Source: a virus. Taken from it: a stretch of DNA of 10,125 nt. Within the stretch, counting starts at the first letter, position 1, and each line of letters begins with the position of its first letter. The stretch lies in the UHGV virus genome UHGV-0288291; one strand, 5' to 3'. The notes under the pieces are model-generated. The model was not told the DNA's origin. It was given only the letters and a program-made list of their open reading frames with translations, and did not search any database. The translations under genes were made by a program, and so were the position numbers. Shown here piece by piece: positions 2,062-10,078 of this stretch.

Positions 2062-4338
2062 TCAAATGGGTAACGAGAACCCCGGCCACTCATCAGCAAC
2101 CGGATACGTGAATTTTTTCCCGTCATAATTTACGGTCGCGCCACGCGCCAGCGCCTCAAGCTCCCATCGTTGCGGCCTGATACCGTTCTGAGCGAGGTCA
2201 ACGCGGATACGGGTAATTTGCAATCGTTCAGACCTGGTCAGTCTGGCAGATGGTGCAATTTCATGCGGTTTTAACGGGATTCCGTTTCTTTGCTGACGAT
2301 TTGGTGTTCTCAGTCCGTGTTTTAATGCGCCCCTGAGCGCCATCACGACCTCCGGGTCACTCCATTCGATAACACCGTCATCTACCAGATTAAGCACTGC
2401 TGCGGCGTGCTCAGAAGGTGTGGGAGCCGGTAACGAAGTATCACCACCGGTGAGCTTTCCACAGTTATTGACAGGACTCCGAGGCGCGGCGATGCCGCTT
2501 TTTAAAGTCAAAGGCTCAACGACCGGAACTTTCGGCACAATGCGCCAGTCCGTCGTTCTGGTGATATGAATATGACGCGCGCCGAGATGCGGCGCGTAAA
2601 TGCCGACCACTCTCTCGACTTCTTCCTCGTACTCGTTAACGTCATCCGACAGACTACGGGCGACCCTGACAGTCTGACAATCGCGCGGGACATTTGCCCC
2701 GCCCTGCGCGCTGATATACAGCGCAAAATCACCACTGTCTGCGGCGGCGCGTGCAGCCTCGACGCGCTCGTCAAACTCATCAGCAATGCTGACGCCGCGA
2801 GGCAATTTGCGTAGTTCACGGTAAGCCCCCATTGTCGGCAGGCCAACCGTTTTAAATTGCGGAATGCGCCACGTTGACGCCCATGCGGTAACAGCCGCTG
2901 CAGTGTCTTTCAGCGGCCTGCCGGTGTCGTTATCGAGCTGACCATCCAGTGCATAGCCGTCGATGTTTTTTGAAATGTATTTCGCGATATATCCCGCAGC
3001 ACCGCCCCGGTTAAGGTGTTTTGCCTGAAAACGGTTTCGCGCGGCTCCTCTTTCGTCGCCATCCTCTTTGAGCGCATAGCGACGCATGATTTCGATAATC
3101 TGGTTACGCTGGCGTGGATGACAAAAAAGCATCATATGCCAGTGCGGCGTTCCGTCGTGGTGTGGCTCGACGACTCGCAAACCGTAGACCTGTAAATCAT
3201 TATCCTTGAATGCCGTGCGCATCAGGCTCCAGATACGGCAGAGATAACGCTGCGCATCCTTTGGATTAAATGCCTCATCGTTCCAGCCGTGATTAAGCTG
3301 AACGGTTTTACTTTCGCCTTTTCCGACCTGACGTGTCGGGTGATACTTTGACGGCGCGGTCAGCGTGATAAACATCCCCACATCACCCTCTGCGGCGGCG
3401 TAACGCTCAATACCGGCAATGGTGTTCATCAGCTCCATCCGGCGAATTTCAGGATTAGAAATACTGCCCATCACCTTACTGATAAGGTCGATGCGCTCGC
3501 CGGTTTCCCTGTTTTCAAGGTCACACGATTTAAGAAATTCCAGATTTGCCTGGCGGCGCGCACGCACATCACGAATGGCGTGTTTACTGGCATAAGGAGA
3601 ACGGTCTTTATTGACCTCCCCGACAGCTATCAGTAACGCCTCATGCCAGCGCATACGCTGGCCTTTAAGCTGACTAATCCACCACTCATCGTTAAACAGG
3701 CGGGCAATGGCAGAATATGCCTGCCTCGTGGTCATCTGTCCTTTACGGTATTTTTTCCAGTAGAGCGGGGAAATATTGAAAGCACGTGCAGCGCCAGCAA
3801 CATGACCATACAGGTGAGCCTGCGCCTCATCCGTAAACAGCGATTCTTTTTCACCATGCGCATCAACCCATGCATCGCAGAGTTCCTCATACATCATGAA
3901 AAGCTGCGATGAGATACGGGCGGCAAACTTTTTCAGCTCCTTGTCATTCATTCCCGGCAGGCGCGCATAGTGGTCACGCTCTGCCAGAAACAGCAACGAC
4001 GCGTCGGTGTTCATTTCATGGCGCTGATTCACACGCTCAATGCGCGGCCATAAACGACGCTGAAAAGTAGATGTGAGGAAATAAAACCCGTGCACCGGGC
4101 TTTTATTGCGCCGGATGTAGTCATAGCGTGAAGTAAACAGCGAGCGCAAAAAGTAAGGCAGGCGGTTAATCGTGGATAAAACACCTTGCACCTGACGCAT
4201 CTCGTCACGTGTAAGAGGTCTTTCGCGCCCGACAGCCTCGCGTGGCGCGTTCCATGCATAAGCACCGGTAAACGCCTTACCGGTGCCTGCGGTAAATGCT
4301 GACGGAGGGACAAAACGCCCGGAGGCTTTAACGGCCAT
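2062..4338 (-). CDS. A: Rolling-circle replication initiator (P2 gpA-like HUH endonuclease)
   Basis: 758-aa product. The first ATG is at 4338; the track start at 4380 is a TTG. HUH motif HWHMM is encoded at 3130-3144. The GYIAKYIS tyrosine pair (Y-x3-Y) is encoded at 2971-3000, typical of phiX174/P2-type initiators. Its start overlaps the end of the upstream small ORF. Confidence 0.9.
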   Translation of the reverse strand: MAVKASGRFVPPSAFTAGTGKAFTGAYAWNAPREAVGRERPLTRDEMRQVQGVLSTINRLPYFLRSLFTSRYDYIRRNKSPVHGFYFLTSTFQRRLWPRIERVNQRHEMNTDASLLFLAERDHYARLPGMNDKELKKFAARISSQLFMMYEELCDAWVDAHGEKESLFTDEAQAHLYGHVAGAARAFNISPLYWKKYRKGQMTTRQAYSAIARLFNDEWWISQLKGQRMRWHEALLIAVGEVNKDRSPYASKHAIRDVRARRQANLEFLKSCDLENRETGERIDLISKVMGSISNPEIRRMELMNTIAGIERYAAAEGDVGMFITLTAPSKYHPTRQVGKGESKTVQLNHGWNDEAFNPKDAQRYLCRIWSLMRTAFKDNDLQVYGLRVVEPHHDGTPHWHMMLFCHPRQRNQIIEIMRRYALKEDGDERGAARNRFQAKHLNRGGAAGYIAKYISKNIDGYALDGQLDNDTGRPLKDTAAAVTAWASTWRIPQFKTVGLPTMGAYRELRKLPRGVSIADEFDERVEAARAAADSGDFALYISAQGGANVPRDCQTVRVARSLSDDVNEYEEEVERVVGIYAPHLGARHIHITRTTDWRIVPKVPVVEPLTLKSGIAAPRSPVNNCGKLTGGDTSLPAPTPSEHAAAVLNLVDDGVIEWSDPEVVMALRGALKHGLRTPNRQQRNGIPLKPHEIAPSARLTRSERLQITRIRVDLAQNGIRPQRWELEALARGATVNYDGKKFTYPVADEWPGFSLPI
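2468..2487 (-). promoter_or_regulatory. Candidate replication origin / A-protein nick region inside gene A
   Basis: The plus strand reads TTGACAGGACTCCGAGGCGC, the reverse complement of GCGCCTCGGAGTCCTGTCAA, which I recall as part of the P2 ori nick region located within the A coding sequence. This is recollection only and needs alignment. Confidence 0.35.
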
Positions 4339-4603
4339 ATGAGCCAAAAGCCTCTGAACAACGCTTGCTGAGTTGCTCAACCTGCGCGTTTAAATCAGCA
4401 AAAGATTTTGCGCTTCCGGTCAGAATATCGTGATGCATCAGGCCGGAAACGAGCTGGCCTAATTTCGGGTAATAACCAACCACCGCCAGCCATTCCTGAC
4501 CGGCGTTTTTACCGCTTTCCGCTCTCTTTTTCTCGTGGAGAATAAACTGAAAGCTGTCACTGGTAACGACATAACGTTTGCCAATTTCAATACGAATACT
4601 CAT
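4328..4603 (-). CDS. Hypothetical protein (P2 orf83 position), 91 aa
   Basis: ATG at 4603 overlaps the upstream stop (ATGA); SD-like GGAGAA upstream. Immediately precedes A. Confidence 0.6.
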   Translation of the reverse strand: MSIRIEIGKRYVVTSDSFQFILHEKKRAESGKNAGQEWLAVVGYYPKLGQLVSGLMHHDILTGSAKSFADLNAQVEQLSKRCSEAFGSYGR

Positions 4604-5413: not shown

Positions 5414-5914
5414 TTAATGCAGATATTGCTCTGGTTTTACCGACGTCAGAATTGTCGGTGCATACTCAAAAAGACTGAATAATTCACGTAATGCACGGAA
5501 TAAAGCATCACGCCAGTAACATGATTCTTCATTAATTCGCCAGTACGGCTGATTGAATTCTTTTTCTGTCAATCCCGCATGCATAAATAAAGTACGACGC
5601 TGACTGACTGTTAAAAAACTAATATATGCATACTCACTTGCGCCGACCTGACGGCGTTTTGAGAATGCGCCACGCAATTCATCAATTGCACAAACCAGTC
5701 GTTCACGTTCGACGTCGTTCATTTCTTCAAAACGCATCGTTGCGTGACGCTGTTTTAACTGTGCATGAAAGCAAACCGTTAGCCGTTCGCGCTCCATCAT
5801 CTGATTATAATAATCACATGTATCCTGCCAGCGAGGGACGGCAAGATGCTTGCCAATTATCCGGCGCATAGCTGCTGGCTGTTTTTCAACGAGATTGAGC
5901 GTCATCACTGTCAT
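5414..5914 (-). CDS. B: Replication protein B (P2 gpB-like helicase-loader accessory), 166 aa
   Basis: The ATG at 5914 is preferred over the track start at 5920: GGAGGG is spaced correctly for 5914, and it forms an ATGA overlap with the upstream ORF stop. Position between cox and A matches P2. Confidence 0.8.
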   Translation of the reverse strand: MTVMTLNLVEKQPAAMRRIIGKHLAVPRWQDTCDYYNQMMERERLTVCFHAQLKQRHATMRFEEMNDVERERLVCAIDELRGAFSKRRQVGASEYAYISFLTVSQRRTLFMHAGLTEKEFNQPYWRINEESCYWRDALFRALRELFSLFEYAPTILTSVKPEQYLH

Positions 5915-6083: not shown

Positions 6084-6371
6084 TCACAACCCCATCCACA
6101 AAAGCCATGCATCACGCTGTTCAACCGGTCGGTTATAAAACGCCTCACGTACAGCGCGATTAAACTCAGGAATGAAAACCCATTTTTCACCGGCACGAGC
6201 CTTCGGTTTGCAAGGATCACGCAATTCAATAATTGGTAATTTATTTGCCTTCACCATTTCACTGACGGCTGTCTTTGGCTTCCCTAATAAATCAGCAAAT
6301 TTATCCACATGAACCGCATCAAGCGGATACTGAATCACATAATTTTCAGCGTCCATATATGGTACCCTCAT
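6084..6371 (-). CDS. cox: Cox-like excisionase / early repressor of the lysogenic promoter
   Basis: First gene of the early operon, divergent from C. C-terminal ...RDAWLLWMGL resembles the P2 Cox C-terminus as I recall it. Alternative start at 6356 (MDAENYV..., 90 aa) has an AGGG at reasonable spacing. Confidence 0.7.
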   Translation of the reverse strand: MRVPYMDAENYVIQYPLDAVHVDKFADLLGKPKTAVSEMVKANKLPIIELRDPCKPKARAGEKWVFIPEFNRAVREAFYNRPVEQRDAWLLWMGL

Positions 6372-6492
6372 AGGATCCAGCCCTTTCTAAACCACTCAAA
6401 ACCGTTTAGATGCTGGTTTATTCTCAAATCAATGGAACCTATATAGGTTCCAGTTTTGAGGGAATTTAGTCCCTATATAGGCACCATGTCAA
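6372..6492. promoter_or_regulatory. C/cox immunity switch region with palindromic operator-like repeats
   Basis: Perfect 18-bp palindrome GGAACCTATATAGGTTCC (6434-6451); related CCCTATATAGG (6471-6481) about 34 bp away; degenerate CCCTCATAGG (6365-6374). Also an inverted pair TCAAAAC (6397-6403) / GTTTTGA (6454-6460). Confidence 0.6.
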
Positions 6493-6786
6493 ATGAAATT
6501 AAGCGAAAAGATTAAGGCCTTGCGTGAGGCTGAAGGGCTAAGCCAATCAAAATTCTGTGAAATCATAGAGTTACCGCTAAGCACACTTAAAAAATATGAA
6601 GGAGGAAACTTTGAACCCGGTGGCACAGCTTTGCTAAAAATCACTATGCATCCCACATTCCAAAAATATGCTCTATGGCTTATGACAGATAAAACCGCGC
6701 CGGACGCAGGACAAATCGCACCGGCTCTCGCGCACATTGGGCCAGAGTCAACAGAGTCCAACCACTCCGCGAAAAGGATTGGCTAA
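6493..6786 (+). CDS. C: Immunity repressor C (P2 C-like, HTH), 97 aa
   Basis: Located directly upstream of int on the same strand. ...GQIAPALAH... matches my recollection of the P2 C repressor C-terminal region. The ATG at 6486 is out of frame and hits a stop. Confidence 0.8.
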   Translation: MKLSEKIKALREAEGLSQSKFCEIIELPLSTLKKYEGGNFEPGGTALLKITMHPTFQKYALWLMTDKTAPDAGQIAPALAHIGPESTESNHSAKRIG

Positions 6787-6855
6787 CTCTATATAAAGAT
6801 TACATTTTCACCATTTGCTACCAAGATGGTGAATACAGCGCCGGAGGGCTTTCTT

Positions 6856-7836
6856 ATGGCAATTAAGAAGCTCGATGATGGTCGCTATGAAGTGGACATT
6901 AGACCTCGCGGTCGCGACGGAAAACGCATCCGCAGGAAATTCGAAAGAAAAGCTGAAGCACTAGCATTTGAGCGATACACAATCGCCAATGCCAGTCAGA
7001 AAGAATGGGGAGGCCAGCGAGCAGACCGCCGGACTTTGAGTGAGTTGCTGGACATCTGGTGGAAATATCACGGGCAAAACCACGAGCATGGAACAAAAGA
7101 GTTTAATCATCTACTCAAAACCATCAGCGGCATAGGTGATATACCAGTGAGCAGGATGAGCAAAAGGGCTTTGATGGATTATCGTTCCATGCGACTACGT
7201 GATGGTATCAGTGCCGCAACGATAAACCGTGACATGTACCGATTATCCGGCATGTTCACAAAATTAATTCAATTGGATGAATTTTCCGGGCAACACCCAA
7301 TTCACGGACTGCCGCCACTGGCGGAGGCCAACCCTGAAATGACGTTCTTGGAAAAAGCAGAAATCGAAAAACTGTTAAATGTTTTGGCTGGTGATGACTT
7401 ACTTGTCGCGCTTTTATGTCTGAGCACCGGAGGAAGATGGACGGAAGTTGCCACGCTAAAACCAGCACAGATTACAAATTGCAGGGTTACCTTCCTGAAA
7501 ACCAAAAACGGTAAAAAGCGAACCGTGCCGATTTCTGAGGAACTGGAGAAAAAAGTTAAAGAGGAGGCCAGCGCCAAATTATTCAAAGTTGATTATGAGA
7601 AATTTTGCGGGATTTTACGCAGAGTGAAACCTGATATACCACCCAATCAGGCAACCCACATCCTGCGGCATACATTCGCAAGCCATTTCATGATGAATGG
7701 GGGCAATATAATCGCACTGCAACAGATTCTGGGACATGCGAGCATTCAGCAGACGATGGCCTATGCGCACCTTGCGCCTGACTATCTGCAAAATGCCGTC
7801 GCTCTGAATCCACTAAAAGGCGGAGTGACGTTATAA
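6856..7836 (+). CDS. int: Tyrosine integrase (P2 Int-like), 326 aa
   Basis: The first ATG with an SD (GGAGGG, 6843-6848) gives MAIKKLDDGRYEVDIRP...; the track start at 6826 is upstream of this. C-terminal catalytic region HILRHTFASHF...LGHASIQQTMAYAHL carries the R/H-x-x-R/Y signature. Confidence 0.9.
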   Translation: MAIKKLDDGRYEVDIRPRGRDGKRIRRKFERKAEALAFERYTIANASQKEWGGQRADRRTLSELLDIWWKYHGQNHEHGTKEFNHLLKTISGIGDIPVSRMSKRALMDYRSMRLRDGISAATINRDMYRLSGMFTKLIQLDEFSGQHPIHGLPPLAEANPEMTFLEKAEIEKLLNVLAGDDLLVALLCLSTGGRWTEVATLKPAQITNCRVTFLKTKNGKKRTVPISEELEKKVKEEASAKLFKVDYEKFCGILRRVKPDIPPNQATHILRHTFASHFMMNGGNIIALQQILGHASIQQTMAYAHLAPDYLQNAVALNPLKGGVTL

Positions 7837-7848
7837 ATTTCCCCCTCT

Positions 7849-7873
7849 GAGTGTCCACATAGTGTCCACACTC
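7849..7873. promoter_or_regulatory. Candidate integrase arm-type binding sites (two TGTCCACA repeats, 11-bp spacing)
   Basis: GAGTGTCCACATAGTGTCCACACTC, with TGTCCACA at 7852-7859 and 7863-7870. The reverse complement TGTGGACA is what I recall as the P2 Int arm-site consensus. Confidence 0.5.
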
Positions 7874-7955
7874 AAGAAATTTTGAAACCGCTCCAAACCC
7901 TTACAGCTTTCGATAAGTACCTGTTTTTACTTTTGATTGCATGTAAGTAATTGAT

Positions 7956-7982
7956 AAAAAAAACCCCCACATCATGTGGGGG
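7956..7982 (-). terminator. Hairpin with A8 tract: terminator for leftward transcription, possibly part of the att core
   Basis: AAAAAAAA (7956-7963), CCCCCAC (7964-7970), loop ATCAT, GTGGGGG (7976-7982). The T-tract follows the stem only on the minus strand. Confidence 0.45.
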
Positions 7983-8046
7983 AAGACAGGGATGGTGTCA
8001 CAAAAATGCACCTAACCTGATGATATAAATGGATTTATATCAAACA

Positions 8047-8069
8047 CTGTCCACATAGCGTCCACATCG
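8047..8069. promoter_or_regulatory. Candidate integrase arm-type binding sites, second pair
   Basis: TGTCCACA (8048-8055) and CGTCCACA (8059-8066), same 11-bp spacing as the first pair. Confidence 0.5.
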
Positions 8070-8076
8070 ACTACTG

Positions 8077-8110
8077 AAAGCCCCTAAGCACATGGGGCTT
8101 TATTTTTCCT
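8077..8110 (+). terminator. Rho-independent terminator upstream of the moron
   Basis: AAAGCCCC (8077-8084), loop TAAGCACAT, GGGGCTTT (8094-8101), then ATTTTTCC. Confidence 0.6.
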
Positions 8111-8161
8111 CTTTTTGGAGGTATGAATTTTACTCAACCAAATGTTTATTAAGGATTTTCT

Positions 8162-8563
8162 ATGGCAACTCTTAAATCAGTGATGGCAATAGCCACCTTA
8201 ATAATTTCACTCAACGCAAACGCGAATGATATTAAAACCCTTCAAAAGCAGCTTAAACCATGGCAACCCCTAGAAATCACGAATAAAAACAACTCGCTTA
8301 CGGTGGTGCTTCCTGGCAAAGAAATCTCTCCTGACGCCTACAACAACCTGATTATGACTGGTGTATGCGCACCAGTCTGGACAAAAGACACGCCTGTTTC
8401 ATATCTCAAAAAAATCAAAGAAATAAGCATAGTTAATCAATATAAATCCATCGGTTATGTTTTTTCCGAACCATTAAAAACATGCAATGAAATAGGTTCG
8501 TTGACGCCTAAACAGGGGCAAGTGTTACTTTCATCCCAAACACGTCTTTACACAGGGAAATAA
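8162..8563 (+). CDS. Hypothetical secreted/periplasmic protein, 133 aa; AT-rich moron between int and ogr
   Basis: SD AAGGA 7 nt before the ATG. N-terminal Sec-type signal peptide MATLKSVMAIATLIISLNANA with an AxA-like cleavage motif and no lipobox Cys. Mature part is K/N/S/T-rich with two Cys. GC is visibly lower than the flanking phage genes. Terminators on both sides. Confidence 0.7.
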   Translation: MATLKSVMAIATLIISLNANANDIKTLQKQLKPWQPLEITNKNNSLTVVLPGKEISPDAYNNLIMTGVCAPVWTKDTPVSYLKKIKEISIVNQYKSIGYVFSEPLKTCNEIGSLTPKQGQVLLSSQTRLYTGK

Positions 8564-8582
8564 GCTCCTAAACAAAGTTGAA

Positions 8583-8610
8583 AGCCCCTCGACTGAGGGG
8601 CTTCCTGTTT
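8583..8610. terminator. Bidirectional terminator between the convergent moron and ogr
   Basis: AGCCCCTC, loop GACT, GAGGGGCT, with U-rich flanks on both strands. Confidence 0.6.
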
Positions 8611-8614
8611 GTAA

Positions 8615-8833
8615 TTACATCCACATAATTTGCTGCCCTGACGGCAACGGGTGCGGCCTTACGGCGTGGACTTCTCCCGGCTTCACGATGTATCGCTGTA
8701 CCGACTCATAAGTGATGAACGTGGCACTACAATTCACGTTCTGGCACTGATGATAACGCTCTTTTGTCGTGTCAGTGATATAGCGGCTTGTACGCGCATG
8801 TGCGGCATGCTGGCATAAAGGACAATGAAACAT
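8615..8833 (-). CDS. ogr: Late gene transcription activator Ogr (zinc finger), 72 aa
   Basis: MFHCPLCQHAAHARTSRYITDTTKERYHQCQNVNCSATF... with a CxxC...CxxxxC zinc finger. ATG at 8833 has AGAGG 8 nt upstream. The longer track ORF (to 8896) starts on a TTG with no SD. Confidence 0.9.
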   Translation of the reverse strand: MFHCPLCQHAAHARTSRYITDTTKERYHQCQNVNCSATFITYESVQRYIVKPGEVHAVRPHPLPSGQQIMWM

Positions 8834-8914
8834 CGCGAGCACCTCTTCCGGTTTTGTTGATGGTGCCATTTTAGTTAAATTATCCTTATAAAACAAACAG
8901 ATAAAATAAAAACA

Positions 8915-10078
8915 TCACTCATCATCTTCTGTTTCGTACTCCACATCAGAAAGCCTGACCTCAAGCTCCAGGGACGTCGTGAAGCCGCTATTATTCAGAA
9001 AATGTGTCACCTTAGTGATTGTCCAGTCCTGCTCGTCTATGACGCGCTTAAAGCCTGACACTTTAACCGGTGTTTCCGTGTAAATATCTGCCCGACCGGT
9101 AGCCAGGCTGATGGAGAACTCCGCAACGCCCCGTTGCAGTTTATCCCACTTCGCCTGAGCGGCGCGCATGGCCTGCGCTTTCGTGGCATATACCGTGGTC
9201 AGGGCAAAAACATTGTCAGCCTCACCGGCCATATATTCACCTTCGCGCGCTTCCGGTACTTTTGGCGCTTTCTTCTGCCTGACCGGTTTCGCTTTTGGGT
9301 GCTCCAGTGCGCGCAGGTGTTTTTCTTTCTTTTTGCGTTTCAGTTTTATCTTCTGCTTTTGCGGCTTCGGGTCTTTGGTGTGAAGCCACTTTGCCGTTAC
9401 GCCGGTATAGGCTCCACGGTCAGCAATCGCAAAATGATGACGGTCGCCGTCGCTGCGGGTGATGGTAATCTGCGGGATTTTTTTACCGCTGGCCGTCACC
9501 CCCTGCCCCGCTTTGAGAAACAACAGTTTTCCCATTTTTACCGACACCTCACCGCCGTTGCGTTCAGCAAGGCGGGTCAGGAATTTTGCATCAGACTCCT
9601 GCGACTGGTCGATGTGCGGGATTTTAATTCCGGCCAGTGACGGAGCGACACTGGCTTCCAGCCTGTTACGGGAGGCTATCGCCTCAACAATCGCACCGAG
9701 CGTGGTGTCATGCCAGGAGCCTTCACGGCGGGAATTGAGCGTCCCGCGAAAATCTGCACTCCGGGCGCGGATGGTGACCACATCCGGTGCGCCCCGGTGT
9801 TCAACCTCATCAACGGTAAATTTCCCTTTGCATACCAGAGCAAAACCTTTCCAGCCTATATACACCGTCAGGACAGCGCCACGAACCGGCAGCCCGACCT
9901 GCCCGTCGGCATCGTTCAGTTCAATATCAAGCTGGTCAGCCTCAAAGCCCCGGTTATCCGTCAGGGTCATGCTCATCAGACGGTCGCTGATATTGCCGGT
10001 AATATCCCTGCTGTCGAGCATCAGCATGTAATCCGGCGTCAGCGTACTGCCTGCATCAAATGTCAGCGCATCCAGCAT
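8915..10078 (-). CDS. D: Phage tail protein D (P2 gpD-like), 387 aa
   Basis: Same strand and immediately upstream of ogr, as in P2. Length matches P2 gpD. Start ATG overlaps the upstream stop (TAATG). Confidence 0.85.
   Translation of the reverse strand: MLDALTFDAGSTLTPDYMLMLDSRDITGNISDRLMSMTLTDNRGFEADQLDIELNDADGQVGLPVRGAVLTVYIGWKGFALVCKGKFTVDEVEHRGAPDVVTIRARSADFRGTLNSRREGSWHDTTLGAIVEAIASRNRLEASVAPSLAGIKIPHIDQSQESDAKFLTRLAERNGGEVSVKMGKLLFLKAGQGVTASGKKIPQITITRSDGDRHHFAIADRGAYTGVTAKWLHTKDPKPQKQKIKLKRKKKEKHLRALEHPKAKPVRQKKAPKVPEAREGEYMAGEADNVFALTTVYATKAQAMRAAQAKWDKLQRGVAEFSISLATGRADIYTETPVKVSGFKRVIDEQDWTITKVTHFLNNSGFTTSLELEVRLSDVEYETEDDE

What the first reader, a model, noticed from the sequence alone, without database searches (positions are those of the whole stretch)
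7849..8069. attP-like architecture: two pairs of TGTCCACA repeats at 11-bp spacing flanking a hairpin
Two pairs of direct octamer repeats (7852-7870 and 8048-8066), each spaced one helical turn apart, lie about 195 bp apart immediately downstream of int. Their reverse complement TGTGGACA matches what I recall as the P2 integrase arm-binding consensus. A GC-rich hairpin with an A8/T8 tract sits between them (7956-7982); it reads as a terminator on the minus strand and may represent the 3' end of a host gene carried in the att core. The P2 attP core sequence itself is not present, so this phage probably uses a different chromosomal attB.
Basis: partly seen in the sequence, partly recalled or inferred. 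Interest (0 to 1): 0.45.

Follow-up and report, generated by a model that had tools for sequence, protein, structure and literature searches.

The report
P2-like phage attachment site (attP)
This is the ordinary, already characterised chromosome-attachment site of a P2-family phage of the WPhi/L-413C type: integrase-binding repeats flank a 47-base copy of the end of the host cpxP gene (the CpxQ small RNA), where the phage inserts.

Summary
GTCCACA occurs four times in the 10-kb window. All four copies are at 7852-7870 and 8048-8066, as two pairs 11 bp apart; about 1e-4 such pairs are expected by chance. The fourth octamer is CGTCCACA, not TGTCCACA.

The pairs align with the Int-footprinted P' and P arms annotated in phage P2 and fit the published P2-type arm consensus tgTGGaCa. 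The adjacent integrase is 99% identical to WPhi Int and 50% to P2 Int.

Prophage junctions in complete E. coli genomes break at 7953-7999. This 47-bp core is identical in WPhi, L-413C and the empty attB between fieF and cpxP, and is found in 4488 of 5426 genomes. The core is the last 44 nt of the cpxP 3' UTR plus 3 nt. It carries the minus-strand terminator and most of the CpxQ sRNA, so integration regenerates CpxQ.

The P2 core, which I show is the 3' end of CyaR, is absent. The IHF and Cox sites are inferred from position and sequence only. The WPhi integration site at cpxP-fieF and the arm consensus are both published, so the feature is already known. The only mildly new point is that the core is CpxQ.

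The parts
6856..7836 (+). int, a heterobivalent tyrosine integrase of 326 aa. The real start is the ATG at 6856 (MAIKKL...), preceded by GGAGGG. The ORF list's 6826 is an upstream in-frame ATG.
   Evidence: Pfam Int_N PF24624 (2.7e-28) and Phage_integrase PF00589 (1.1e-19). It is 99% identical to WPhi Int and 52% (50%) to P2 Int; the first ~30 residues are nearly identical to P2 Int. Homologues are annotated as 981 bp.
7852..7870 (+). P' arm: two direct Int arm-type boxes, TGTCCACA at 7852-7859 and 7863-7870, 11 bp start to start.
   Evidence: It aligns with the P2 'Int P' arm' protein_bind feature. It is invariant in P2, WPhi, L-413C and FSL SP-004. It lies 100-104 nt from the core in lysogens of several genera.
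7871..7952 (.). Spacer between the P' arm and the core: the inferred Cox (excision directionality factor) binding region. Candidate boxes lie around 7883-7903 (TGAAACCGCTCCAAACCCTTA).
   Evidence: This position corresponds to the Cox footprint in P2. It is the most divergent part of attP between the window/L-413C and WPhi, whose Cox proteins are 79% identical. WPhi attP shares a 15/16 match with its own Pe-Pc region. The window shares only 15/21 with 6387-6407, which is not significant on its own (read from the sequence). This is an inference.
7944..7956 (-). Perfect match to the IHF consensus WATCAANNNNTTR (TATCAATTACTTA), straddling the left edge of the core.
   Evidence: It is the only perfect match in the window, and the WPhi sequence (TATCAATCACTTA) also fits. 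No footprint data exist. The number of matches with up to one mismatch in the window is not above chance.
7953..7999 (.). Common core, 47 bp identical between attP and attB: GATAAAAAAAACCCCCACATCATGTGGGGGAAGACAGGGATGGTGTC. Strand exchange must occur inside it.
   Evidence: The overlap of the two junction alignments is query 117-163 of 7837-8161. The core is present in 4488 of 5426 E. coli genomes. Empty site. attL and attR in one genome. It is identical in WPhi and L-413C.
7956..7982 (-). Rho-independent terminator of host cpxP / 3' end of the CpxQ sRNA (stem 7964-7972 with 7974-7982, U8 from 7956-7963), carried in the core.
   Evidence: In attB it lies downstream of the cpxP stop, with the core starting 24 nt after the stop codon. 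The 58-nt RNA folds at -17.4 kcal/mol, z = -2.7. CpxQ spans almost the whole cpxP 3' UTR (PMC9438474).
8013..8025 (-). Candidate IHF site (TATCATCAGGTTA, one mismatch) next to an A/T-rich palindrome at 8021-8042, between the core and the P arm.
   Evidence: The position matches the IHF footprint annotated between the core and the P arm in P2. The flanking block TGATATAAATGGATTTAT is conserved with P2. This is an inference.
8048..8066 (+). P arm: two direct Int arm-type boxes, TGTCCACA at 8048-8055 and CGTCCACA at 8059-8066.
   Evidence: It aligns with the P2 'Int P arm' feature. It lies 51-53 nt from the core in lysogens of several genera. In most of the 664 E. coli prophages that match, homology ends at about 8071, which marks the outer edge of attP.
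8077..8109 (+). Terminator-like hairpin (AAAGCCCC / GGGGCTTT followed by ATTTTT) just outside the P arm. It is the likely end of the C-int transcript in the phage form.
   Evidence: P2 has a terminator at the equivalent place between ogr and the P arm.
6084..6371 (-). cox, the directionality factor expected to act on the 7871-7952 segment.
   Evidence: Pfam Phage_Cox, 1.2e-23. It is 99% identical to L-413C Cox, 79% to WPhi Cox and 40% to P2 Cox.

Best explanation
The segment 7849-8069 is the complete attP of a P2-family (Peduovirus) temperate phage with WPhi/L-413C integration specificity.

Proposed mechanism. Binding and catalysis are inferred by homology; the site layout and the junctions are shown.
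- The N-terminal domain of Int binds the four arm boxes, two in the P' arm (7852-7870) and two in the P arm (8048-8066).
- The core-binding and catalytic domains of Int act on the 47-bp core (7953-7999) and on the identical attB between fieF and cpxP.
- IHF bends the DNA between the core and the P arm, so that Int can bridge arm and core.
- Cox binds between the P' arm and the core, blocking integration and promoting excision.

The core is the last 44 nt of the cpxP 3' UTR plus 3 nt. That is about three quarters of the CpxQ sRNA, including its terminator. The phage therefore brings a replacement copy, and insertion leaves cpxP and CpxQ intact.
For: - Repeats are non-random.
- They align with the Int-footprinted P and P' arms of P2, while the sequence between them differs.
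- The published consensus for P2-type arm sites is tgTGGaCa.
- Int is 99% identical to WPhi Int and carries the Int_N and catalytic domains.
- Junction mapping: int-side alignments end at 7999, ogr-side alignments start at 7953, and empty sites match only 7953-7999. The annotated contexts are fieF|core|cpxP, int-core-cpxP and fieF-core-ORF-ogr-D. Both junctions occur about 31.7 kb apart in strain 181.1.
- The P' side is present in 777 and the P side in 664 of 5426 E. coli genomes. No genome has the intact attP.
- Comparative support: seven Peduoviridae from five genera keep the layout of two boxes, core, two boxes. In SEN5 and phiT5282H all four boxes change together to GTCTACA/GACTACA, alongside substitutions in the Int N-terminus.
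- In species-representative genomes the arm pairs sit 100-104 nt and 51-53 nt from the core.
- The WPhi prophage in E. coli W is reported at cpxP-fieF, and the L-413C core is reported identical to the WPhi core.
Against: - Nothing contradicts this explanation.
- Int binding, the IHF and Cox sites, and the exact crossover point are not shown for this sequence.
- IHF-consensus matches in the window are no more frequent than chance.
- The candidate Cox-box similarity to the Pe-Pc region is not statistically significant.
- The primary papers on WPhi attP (Karlsson 2006; Ahlgren-Berg 2009; Liu 1999) could not be read.
Confidence: 0.94

Rival explanations
1. The octamer repeats are binding sites for a different phage regulator (the C repressor, Cox or Ogr) rather than Int arm sites. 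Their position beside the core would then be incidental.
For: Directionality factors and repressors of this phage family also bind direct repeats about one helical turn apart.
Against: The box does not occur in the Pe-Pc switch region, where C and Cox act; that region instead carries CCTATATAGG-type repeats. The boxes are invariant between P2, WPhi and this phage, although their C proteins are 42-56% and their Cox proteins 40-79% identical. The Int N-terminus is nearly identical. In P2 these positions are annotated as Int protein_bind features. The boxes co-vary with the Int N-terminal domain in SEN5 and phiT5282H.
Confidence: 0.03
2. The hairpin is simply a phage transcription terminator for the ogr/late or int transcripts, and the real crossover site lies elsewhere.
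For: It is a strong intrinsic terminator on the minus strand, and P2 has a terminator between ogr and attP.
Against: The hairpin lies inside the 47 bp shared with the empty chromosomal site, just downstream of the cpxP stop codon. All prophage junction alignments seen break at its flanks. Separate terminators already follow ogr (8580-8605) and the P arm (8077-8109).
Confidence: 0.02
3. The repeats are a chance arrangement with no function.
For: With one mismatch allowed, the octamer is not over-represented in the window as a whole (11 found, 7.3 expected).
Against: The exact heptamer occurs only in the two pairs. About 1e-4 pairs are expected. Sequence and spacing are conserved across genera.
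Confidence: 0.005

Closest known systems
attP of coliphage WPhi and of Yersinia/E. coli phage L-413C (Peduovirus)
   Same: The 47-bp core is identical, as are the arm boxes, their spacing and the gene order int-attP-ogr. Int is 99% identical, and the integration site is cpxP-fieF.
   Different: The segment between the P' arm and the core matches L-413C (about 96%) but differs from WPhi, in line with an L-413C-type Cox and C. This phage also carries an extra 133-aa ORF between the P arm and ogr, which neither WPhi nor L-413C has.
attP of phage P2 (Int P arm - IHF - 27-bp core - Cox - Int P' arm, footprinted)
   Same: The architecture and total size are alike (204 bp against about 220 bp). The arm-box sequence is the same and the Int N-terminal domain is nearly identical. 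In both, the core is the 3' end of an Hfq-dependent sRNA gene.
   Different: The core and attB differ: P2 uses the end of cyaR next to yegQ, whereas this phage uses the end of cpxP/CpxQ. The host terminator has the opposite orientation relative to int. Int is only 50% identical, with the lowest identity in the core-binding region. The core is longer, 47 bp against 27 bp.
Phage lambda attP (heterobivalent Int, arm and core sites, IHF, Xis)
   Same: The logic is the same: arm-type sites on both sides of a core, bending proteins and a directionality factor (established knowledge; describes the P2-family version).
   Different: The site sequences are unrelated. There are two arm boxes per arm rather than lambda's P1, P2 and P'1-3. 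Cox replaces Xis and doubles as a Cro-like repressor.
attP of phage 186 and relatives
   Same: The phage family and gene order are the same, with direct-repeat arm sites on both sides of a long core that restores a host RNA gene.
   Different: The 186-type arm consensus is tgccGCCActt and the targets are tRNA genes. Neither applies here.

Membership tests
P2-type attP (Peduoviridae heterobivalent Int site), WPhi/L-413C specificity | An adjacent P2-family tyrosine integrase with an N-terminal arm-binding domain | tested here: met
   Pfam Int_N and Phage_integrase. 99% identity to WPhi Int.
P2-type attP (Peduoviridae heterobivalent Int site), WPhi/L-413C specificity | At least two direct repeats matching tgTGGaCa on each side of the core | tested here: met
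   consensus. The repeats align to the P2 P and P' arms.
P2-type attP (Peduoviridae heterobivalent Int site), WPhi/L-413C specificity | A core identical to a chromosomal attB | tested here: met
   The 47 bp at 7953-7999 are identical to the fieF-cpxP intergenic site, which is found in 4488 of 5426 E. coli genomes.
P2-type attP (Peduoviridae heterobivalent Int site), WPhi/L-413C specificity | Prophages bounded by attL and attR that each keep one arm plus the core | tested here: met
   (both junctions in strain 181.1). The P' side is in 777 genomes and the P side in 664, and none holds an intact attP.
P2-type attP (Peduoviridae heterobivalent Int site), WPhi/L-413C specificity | The same core as WPhi | tested here: met
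   The alignment shows 47 of 47 identity with WPhi and L-413C.
P2-type attP (Peduoviridae heterobivalent Int site), WPhi/L-413C specificity | An IHF site between the core and the P arm | tested here: inconclusive
   A one-mismatch consensus match at 8013-8025 is in the right position, and a perfect match lies at 7944-7956. The overall count equals the chance expectation.
P2-type attP (Peduoviridae heterobivalent Int site), WPhi/L-413C specificity | Cox-binding repeats between the core and the P' arm | tested here: inconclusive
   No P2 cox-box consensus was looked for, and none is expected because Cox is only 40% identical to P2 Cox. The similarity of 7883-7903 to the Pe-Pc segment 6387-6407 is weak (15/21). 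The WPhi equivalent is 15/16.
P2-type attP (Peduoviridae heterobivalent Int site), WPhi/L-413C specificity | Int binds the arms and catalyses attP x attB recombination | not testable with these tools
   This needs EMSA or footprinting and recombination assays.
P2 attP sensu stricto (locI / cyaR specificity) | The 27-bp P2 core AATCTCCCTTACACGGGCTTATTTTTT | tested here: not met
   There is no match with up to 3 mismatches. The P2 core maps to the 3' end of CyaR.
186-type attP | Arm repeats matching tgccGCCActt and a tRNA-gene core | tested here: not met
   The arm boxes are of the P2 type, and the window contains no tRNA.

The most novel reading that the evidence does not exclude
The attP core is a 44-nt piece of the envelope-stress sRNA CpxQ: its terminator/Hfq-binding module and the single-stranded stretch before it. 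I found no paper that links WPhi-type integration to CpxQ. Lysogeny might therefore affect Cpx signalling in either of two ways.
- The C-int transcript could read antisense across CpxQ and cpxP, because there is no plus-strand terminator between int and cpxP in the lysogen.
- A truncated CpxQ-like RNA could be expressed from the second core copy or from the replicating phage.

No promoter-like site supports the second route, and nothing here shows any effect.
Probability: 0.07. Interest if true: 0.5.

Novelty: already known. Interest (0 to 1): 0.15.

Why it matters
The result matters mainly for annotation. It fixes the attP boundaries (7852-8066), the core (7953-7999) and the integration locus (fieF|cpxP) of this phage. 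It also shows that the phage belongs to the WPhi/L-413C integration group, which occupies that site in roughly one in seven complete E. coli genomes.

A small conceptual point follows. Two P2-family att specificities (P2 and WPhi) both target the terminator end of Hfq-dependent sRNAs, CyaR and CpxQ. The extreme conservation of CpxQ gives these phages an identical landing site across many enterobacterial genera.

Tried and rejected
- Rfam at gathering thresholds found no family in the window, and ARAGORN found no tRNA or tmRNA. The core is therefore not a tRNA-type target.
- Rfam appears to have no CpxQ family. The only hit at the host site is Hrs1 (RF02628), below threshold and on the antisense strand.
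- Rfam on the P2 attP did not detect CyaR, because the 27-bp core is too short. The link was shown instead by finding the core in an empty E. coli site and running Rfam there.
- The primary WPhi att papers (PMC1482927, PMC113030) and the CyaR paper (PMC2620814) are not held.
- A first regex for arm pairs used the wrong spacer and found nothing. It was corrected.
- I considered whether the partial similarity between the arm box and the hairpin stem (CCACAT, D2/I4) means anything. I treated it as chance, because arm and core sites are read by different Int domains.
- I considered naming the crossover position, for example the centre of the hairpin. The data do not allow it.

Full report
**Observation.** The window is the early/lysogeny region of a P2-like phage. 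Its gene order is:

| Feature | Coordinates | Strand |
|---|---|---|
| replication gene A | 2062-4380 | - |
| cox | 6084-6371 | - |
| immunity repressor C | 6493-6786 | + |
| int | 6856-7836 | + |
| the finding | 7849-8069 | |
| 133-aa ORF | 8162-8563 | + |
| ogr | about 8615-8896 | - |
| D | 8915-10078 | - |

Exact TGTCCACA lies at 7852, 7863 and 8048. The fourth box, at 8059, is CGTCCACA. The heptamer GTCCACA occurs four times in 10,125 bases, all in these two pairs. About 1e-4 pairs of the form GTCCACA-N4-GTCCACA are expected from composition, and two are present. The two 19-nt units are 95% identical and start 196 bp apart. The hairpin (7964-7972 with 7974-7982, preceded by A8) scores as an intrinsic terminator on the minus strand only.

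**Identity of the repeats.** The RefSeq record of phage P2 annotates, between ogr and int: an Int P arm, an IHF site, the 27-bp attP core, a Cox site and an Int P' arm. In an alignment of this window with P2, WPhi and L-413C, the two repeat pairs fall exactly on the P2 P' and P arms and are invariant. The sequence between them is unalignable with P2. Nilsson et al. [quoted passage not shown] The integrase has the Int_N and catalytic domains. It is 99% identical to WPhi Int and 50-52% to P2 Int, and its first ~30 residues are almost identical to those of P2. That fits a shared arm-site sequence combined with a different core specificity.

**Locating the core and attB.** A search of 7837-8161 against 5,426 complete E. 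coli genomes gave no genome with the whole segment. It gave three classes of match:
- 7837-7999, the int side;
- 7953-8161, the ogr side;
- 7953-7999 alone, in most genomes (4,488 genomes in all).

The annotated contexts fit integration at the core. The empty site lies between fieF and cpxP. The int-side junction abuts cpxP. The ogr-side junction abuts fieF. Both junctions occur about 31.7 kb apart in strain 181.1. The P'-side segment occurs in 777 genomes and the P-side segment in 664. In most genomes homology on the P side ends at about 8071, just past the last box, which independently marks the outer edge of attP. The core is identical in WPhi and L-413C. This agrees with the published statement that L-413C has the WPhi core and with the E. 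coli W genome paper, which places prophage Wphi1 at cpxP-fieF.

**What the core is.** In the empty site the core starts 24 nt after the cpxP stop codon and runs through the terminator. It comprises the last 44 nt of the 67-nt cpxP 3' UTR plus 3 nt beyond the U-tract. The cpxP 3' UTR is processed into the ~60-nt Hfq-dependent sRNA CpxQ, which spans almost the entire UTR and is more conserved than cpxP itself. From memory, CpxQ is 58 nt long and starts UUUUCC. On that count the core holds nt 15-58. The 58-mer folds into a small hairpin plus the terminator. Because the phage copy is identical, integration regenerates cpxP and CpxQ.

A 42-nt part of the core is exactly conserved in 115 stretches of a one-genome-per-species collection. 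These span Escherichia, Salmonella, Citrobacter, Klebsiella, Enterobacter, Kosakonia, Kluyvera, Raoultella, Yokenella, Mixta and others.

**Comparative support.** Seven Peduoviridae from five genera share the layout of two boxes, core, two boxes: the window, L-413C, WPhi, FSL SP-004, SEN5, phiT5282H and SI7. In SEN5 and phiT5282H all four boxes change together, from GTCCACA to GTCTACA/GACTACA. Their Int proteins differ in the N-terminal domain (for example KKLEGGQYEVDVWP against KKLDDGRYEVDIRP). Among the species-representative genomes, 14 of 116 core copies have an arm pair either 100-104 nt on one side or 51-53 nt on the other. The window has the same distances, 103 and 51. This concerted change and rigid spacing are what is expected of sites read by one protein domain within a defined nucleoprotein complex.

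**Accessory sites (inferred).**
- The only perfect IHF-consensus match in the window is at 7944-7956 (-), at the left edge of the core.
- A one-mismatch IHF match at 8013-8025 (-), beside an A/T-rich palindrome, occupies the position of the P2 IHF footprint. IHF-like matches are not more frequent in the window than in shuffles.
- The segment between the P' arm and the core (7871-7952) is where P2 Cox footprints. It is the part of attP that differs most between WPhi and this phage, whose Cox is 79% identical to WPhi Cox and 99% to L-413C Cox.
- WPhi attP shares a 15/16 match (TCCAGTCCCTTATAGG against TCCAGTCCCTTCTAGG) with its own Pe-Pc region. In the window the corresponding similarity, 7883-7903 against 6387-6407, is 15/21 and is not significant alone.

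**Comparison with P2.** The P2 core is absent from the window. I confirmed that the P2 core is the 3' end of the CyaR sRNA. It matches an empty E. coli site next to yegQ, and Rfam places CyaR at 1139-1224 of that locus, overlapping the core match at 1201-1228. Relative to int, the CyaR terminator is on the same strand and the CpxQ terminator on the opposite strand. The E. coli W paper also lists P2-type prophages at cyaR and rybB. Targeting of sRNA 3' ends by this phage family is therefore a known pattern, to which cpxP-fieF belongs once it is read as CpxQ. A full-text search for CpxQ with prophage returned 17 papers. None of the 12 listed was about this link by title or abstract, and the review I opened does not mention attachment sites.

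**Verdict.** This is a textbook heterobivalent-integrase attP of the already described WPhi/L-413C specificity. Novelty is nil for the architecture and slight for the CpxQ reading. Confidence in the assignment is about 0.94. Interest is 0.15.

Noticed in passing
L048 (Citrobacter amalonaticus P55), 1047-1088 and 2885-2926: Two copies of the CpxQ core lie 1.8 kb apart. One has a P-type arm pair 51 nt away and the other a P'-type pair 100 nt away (GTCTACA variant). They enclose only two ORFs, one of 339 aa and one of 154 aa with a Doc/Fic-like HAFSDGNKR motif, and no integrase. This is either a deletion remnant that keeps both att junctions or an int-less mini-element that a helper Int could move.
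   Followed up: partly
L015 (Kosakonia oryziphila), core at 5566-5607: A single core copy has a GTCCACA-type P' pair on one side and a GTCTACA/GACTACA-type P pair on the other. This is a hybrid attP-like junction, most simply explained by two different P2-like prophages inserted in tandem at the same site.
   Followed up: no
L001 2504-2576 (E. coli cpxP 3' UTR): Rfam Hrs1 (RF02628, an Hfq-regulated sRNA) matches this region at 44.5 bits, below its gathering score of 56.4, but on the strand antisense to cpxP. The model begins with an A-run followed by a hairpin, so it looks like a reverse-complemented terminator. The family may be the CpxQ homologue stored in the opposite orientation. No family named CpxQ matched.
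   Followed up: no
window 8162-8563 (+): A 133-aa ORF with a signal-peptide-like N-terminus is inserted between the attP P arm and ogr. It has no Pfam hit and matches phrog_3807, of unknown function. It is present in FSL SP-004, P37, GMS190 and a few E. coli prophages: 42 genomes share this flank, against 664 that share 8000-8071. It looks like a moron or cargo slot next to attP.
   Followed up: partly
L002 2900-3800 (lysogen junction int-core-cpxP): The scan finds no plus-strand terminator-like site between the int stop codon and the cpxP coding sequence in the lysogen. In the phage form one follows the P arm at 8077-8109. The C-int transcript could therefore run antisense across CpxQ and cpxP in lysogens.
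   Followed up: no
window 6372-6492: The Pe-Pc switch region carries two copies of a CCTATATAGG-centred palindrome (GGAACCTATATAGGTTCC and GTCCCTATATAGGCAC). These are presumably the operators of the L-413C-type C repressor. They are unrelated to the att boxes.
   Followed up: no
window 6826-6855: The ORF list starts int at ATG 6826 (336 aa). Homologues and the GGAGGG at 6844-6849 indicate the start at 6856 (326 aa).
   Followed up: yes
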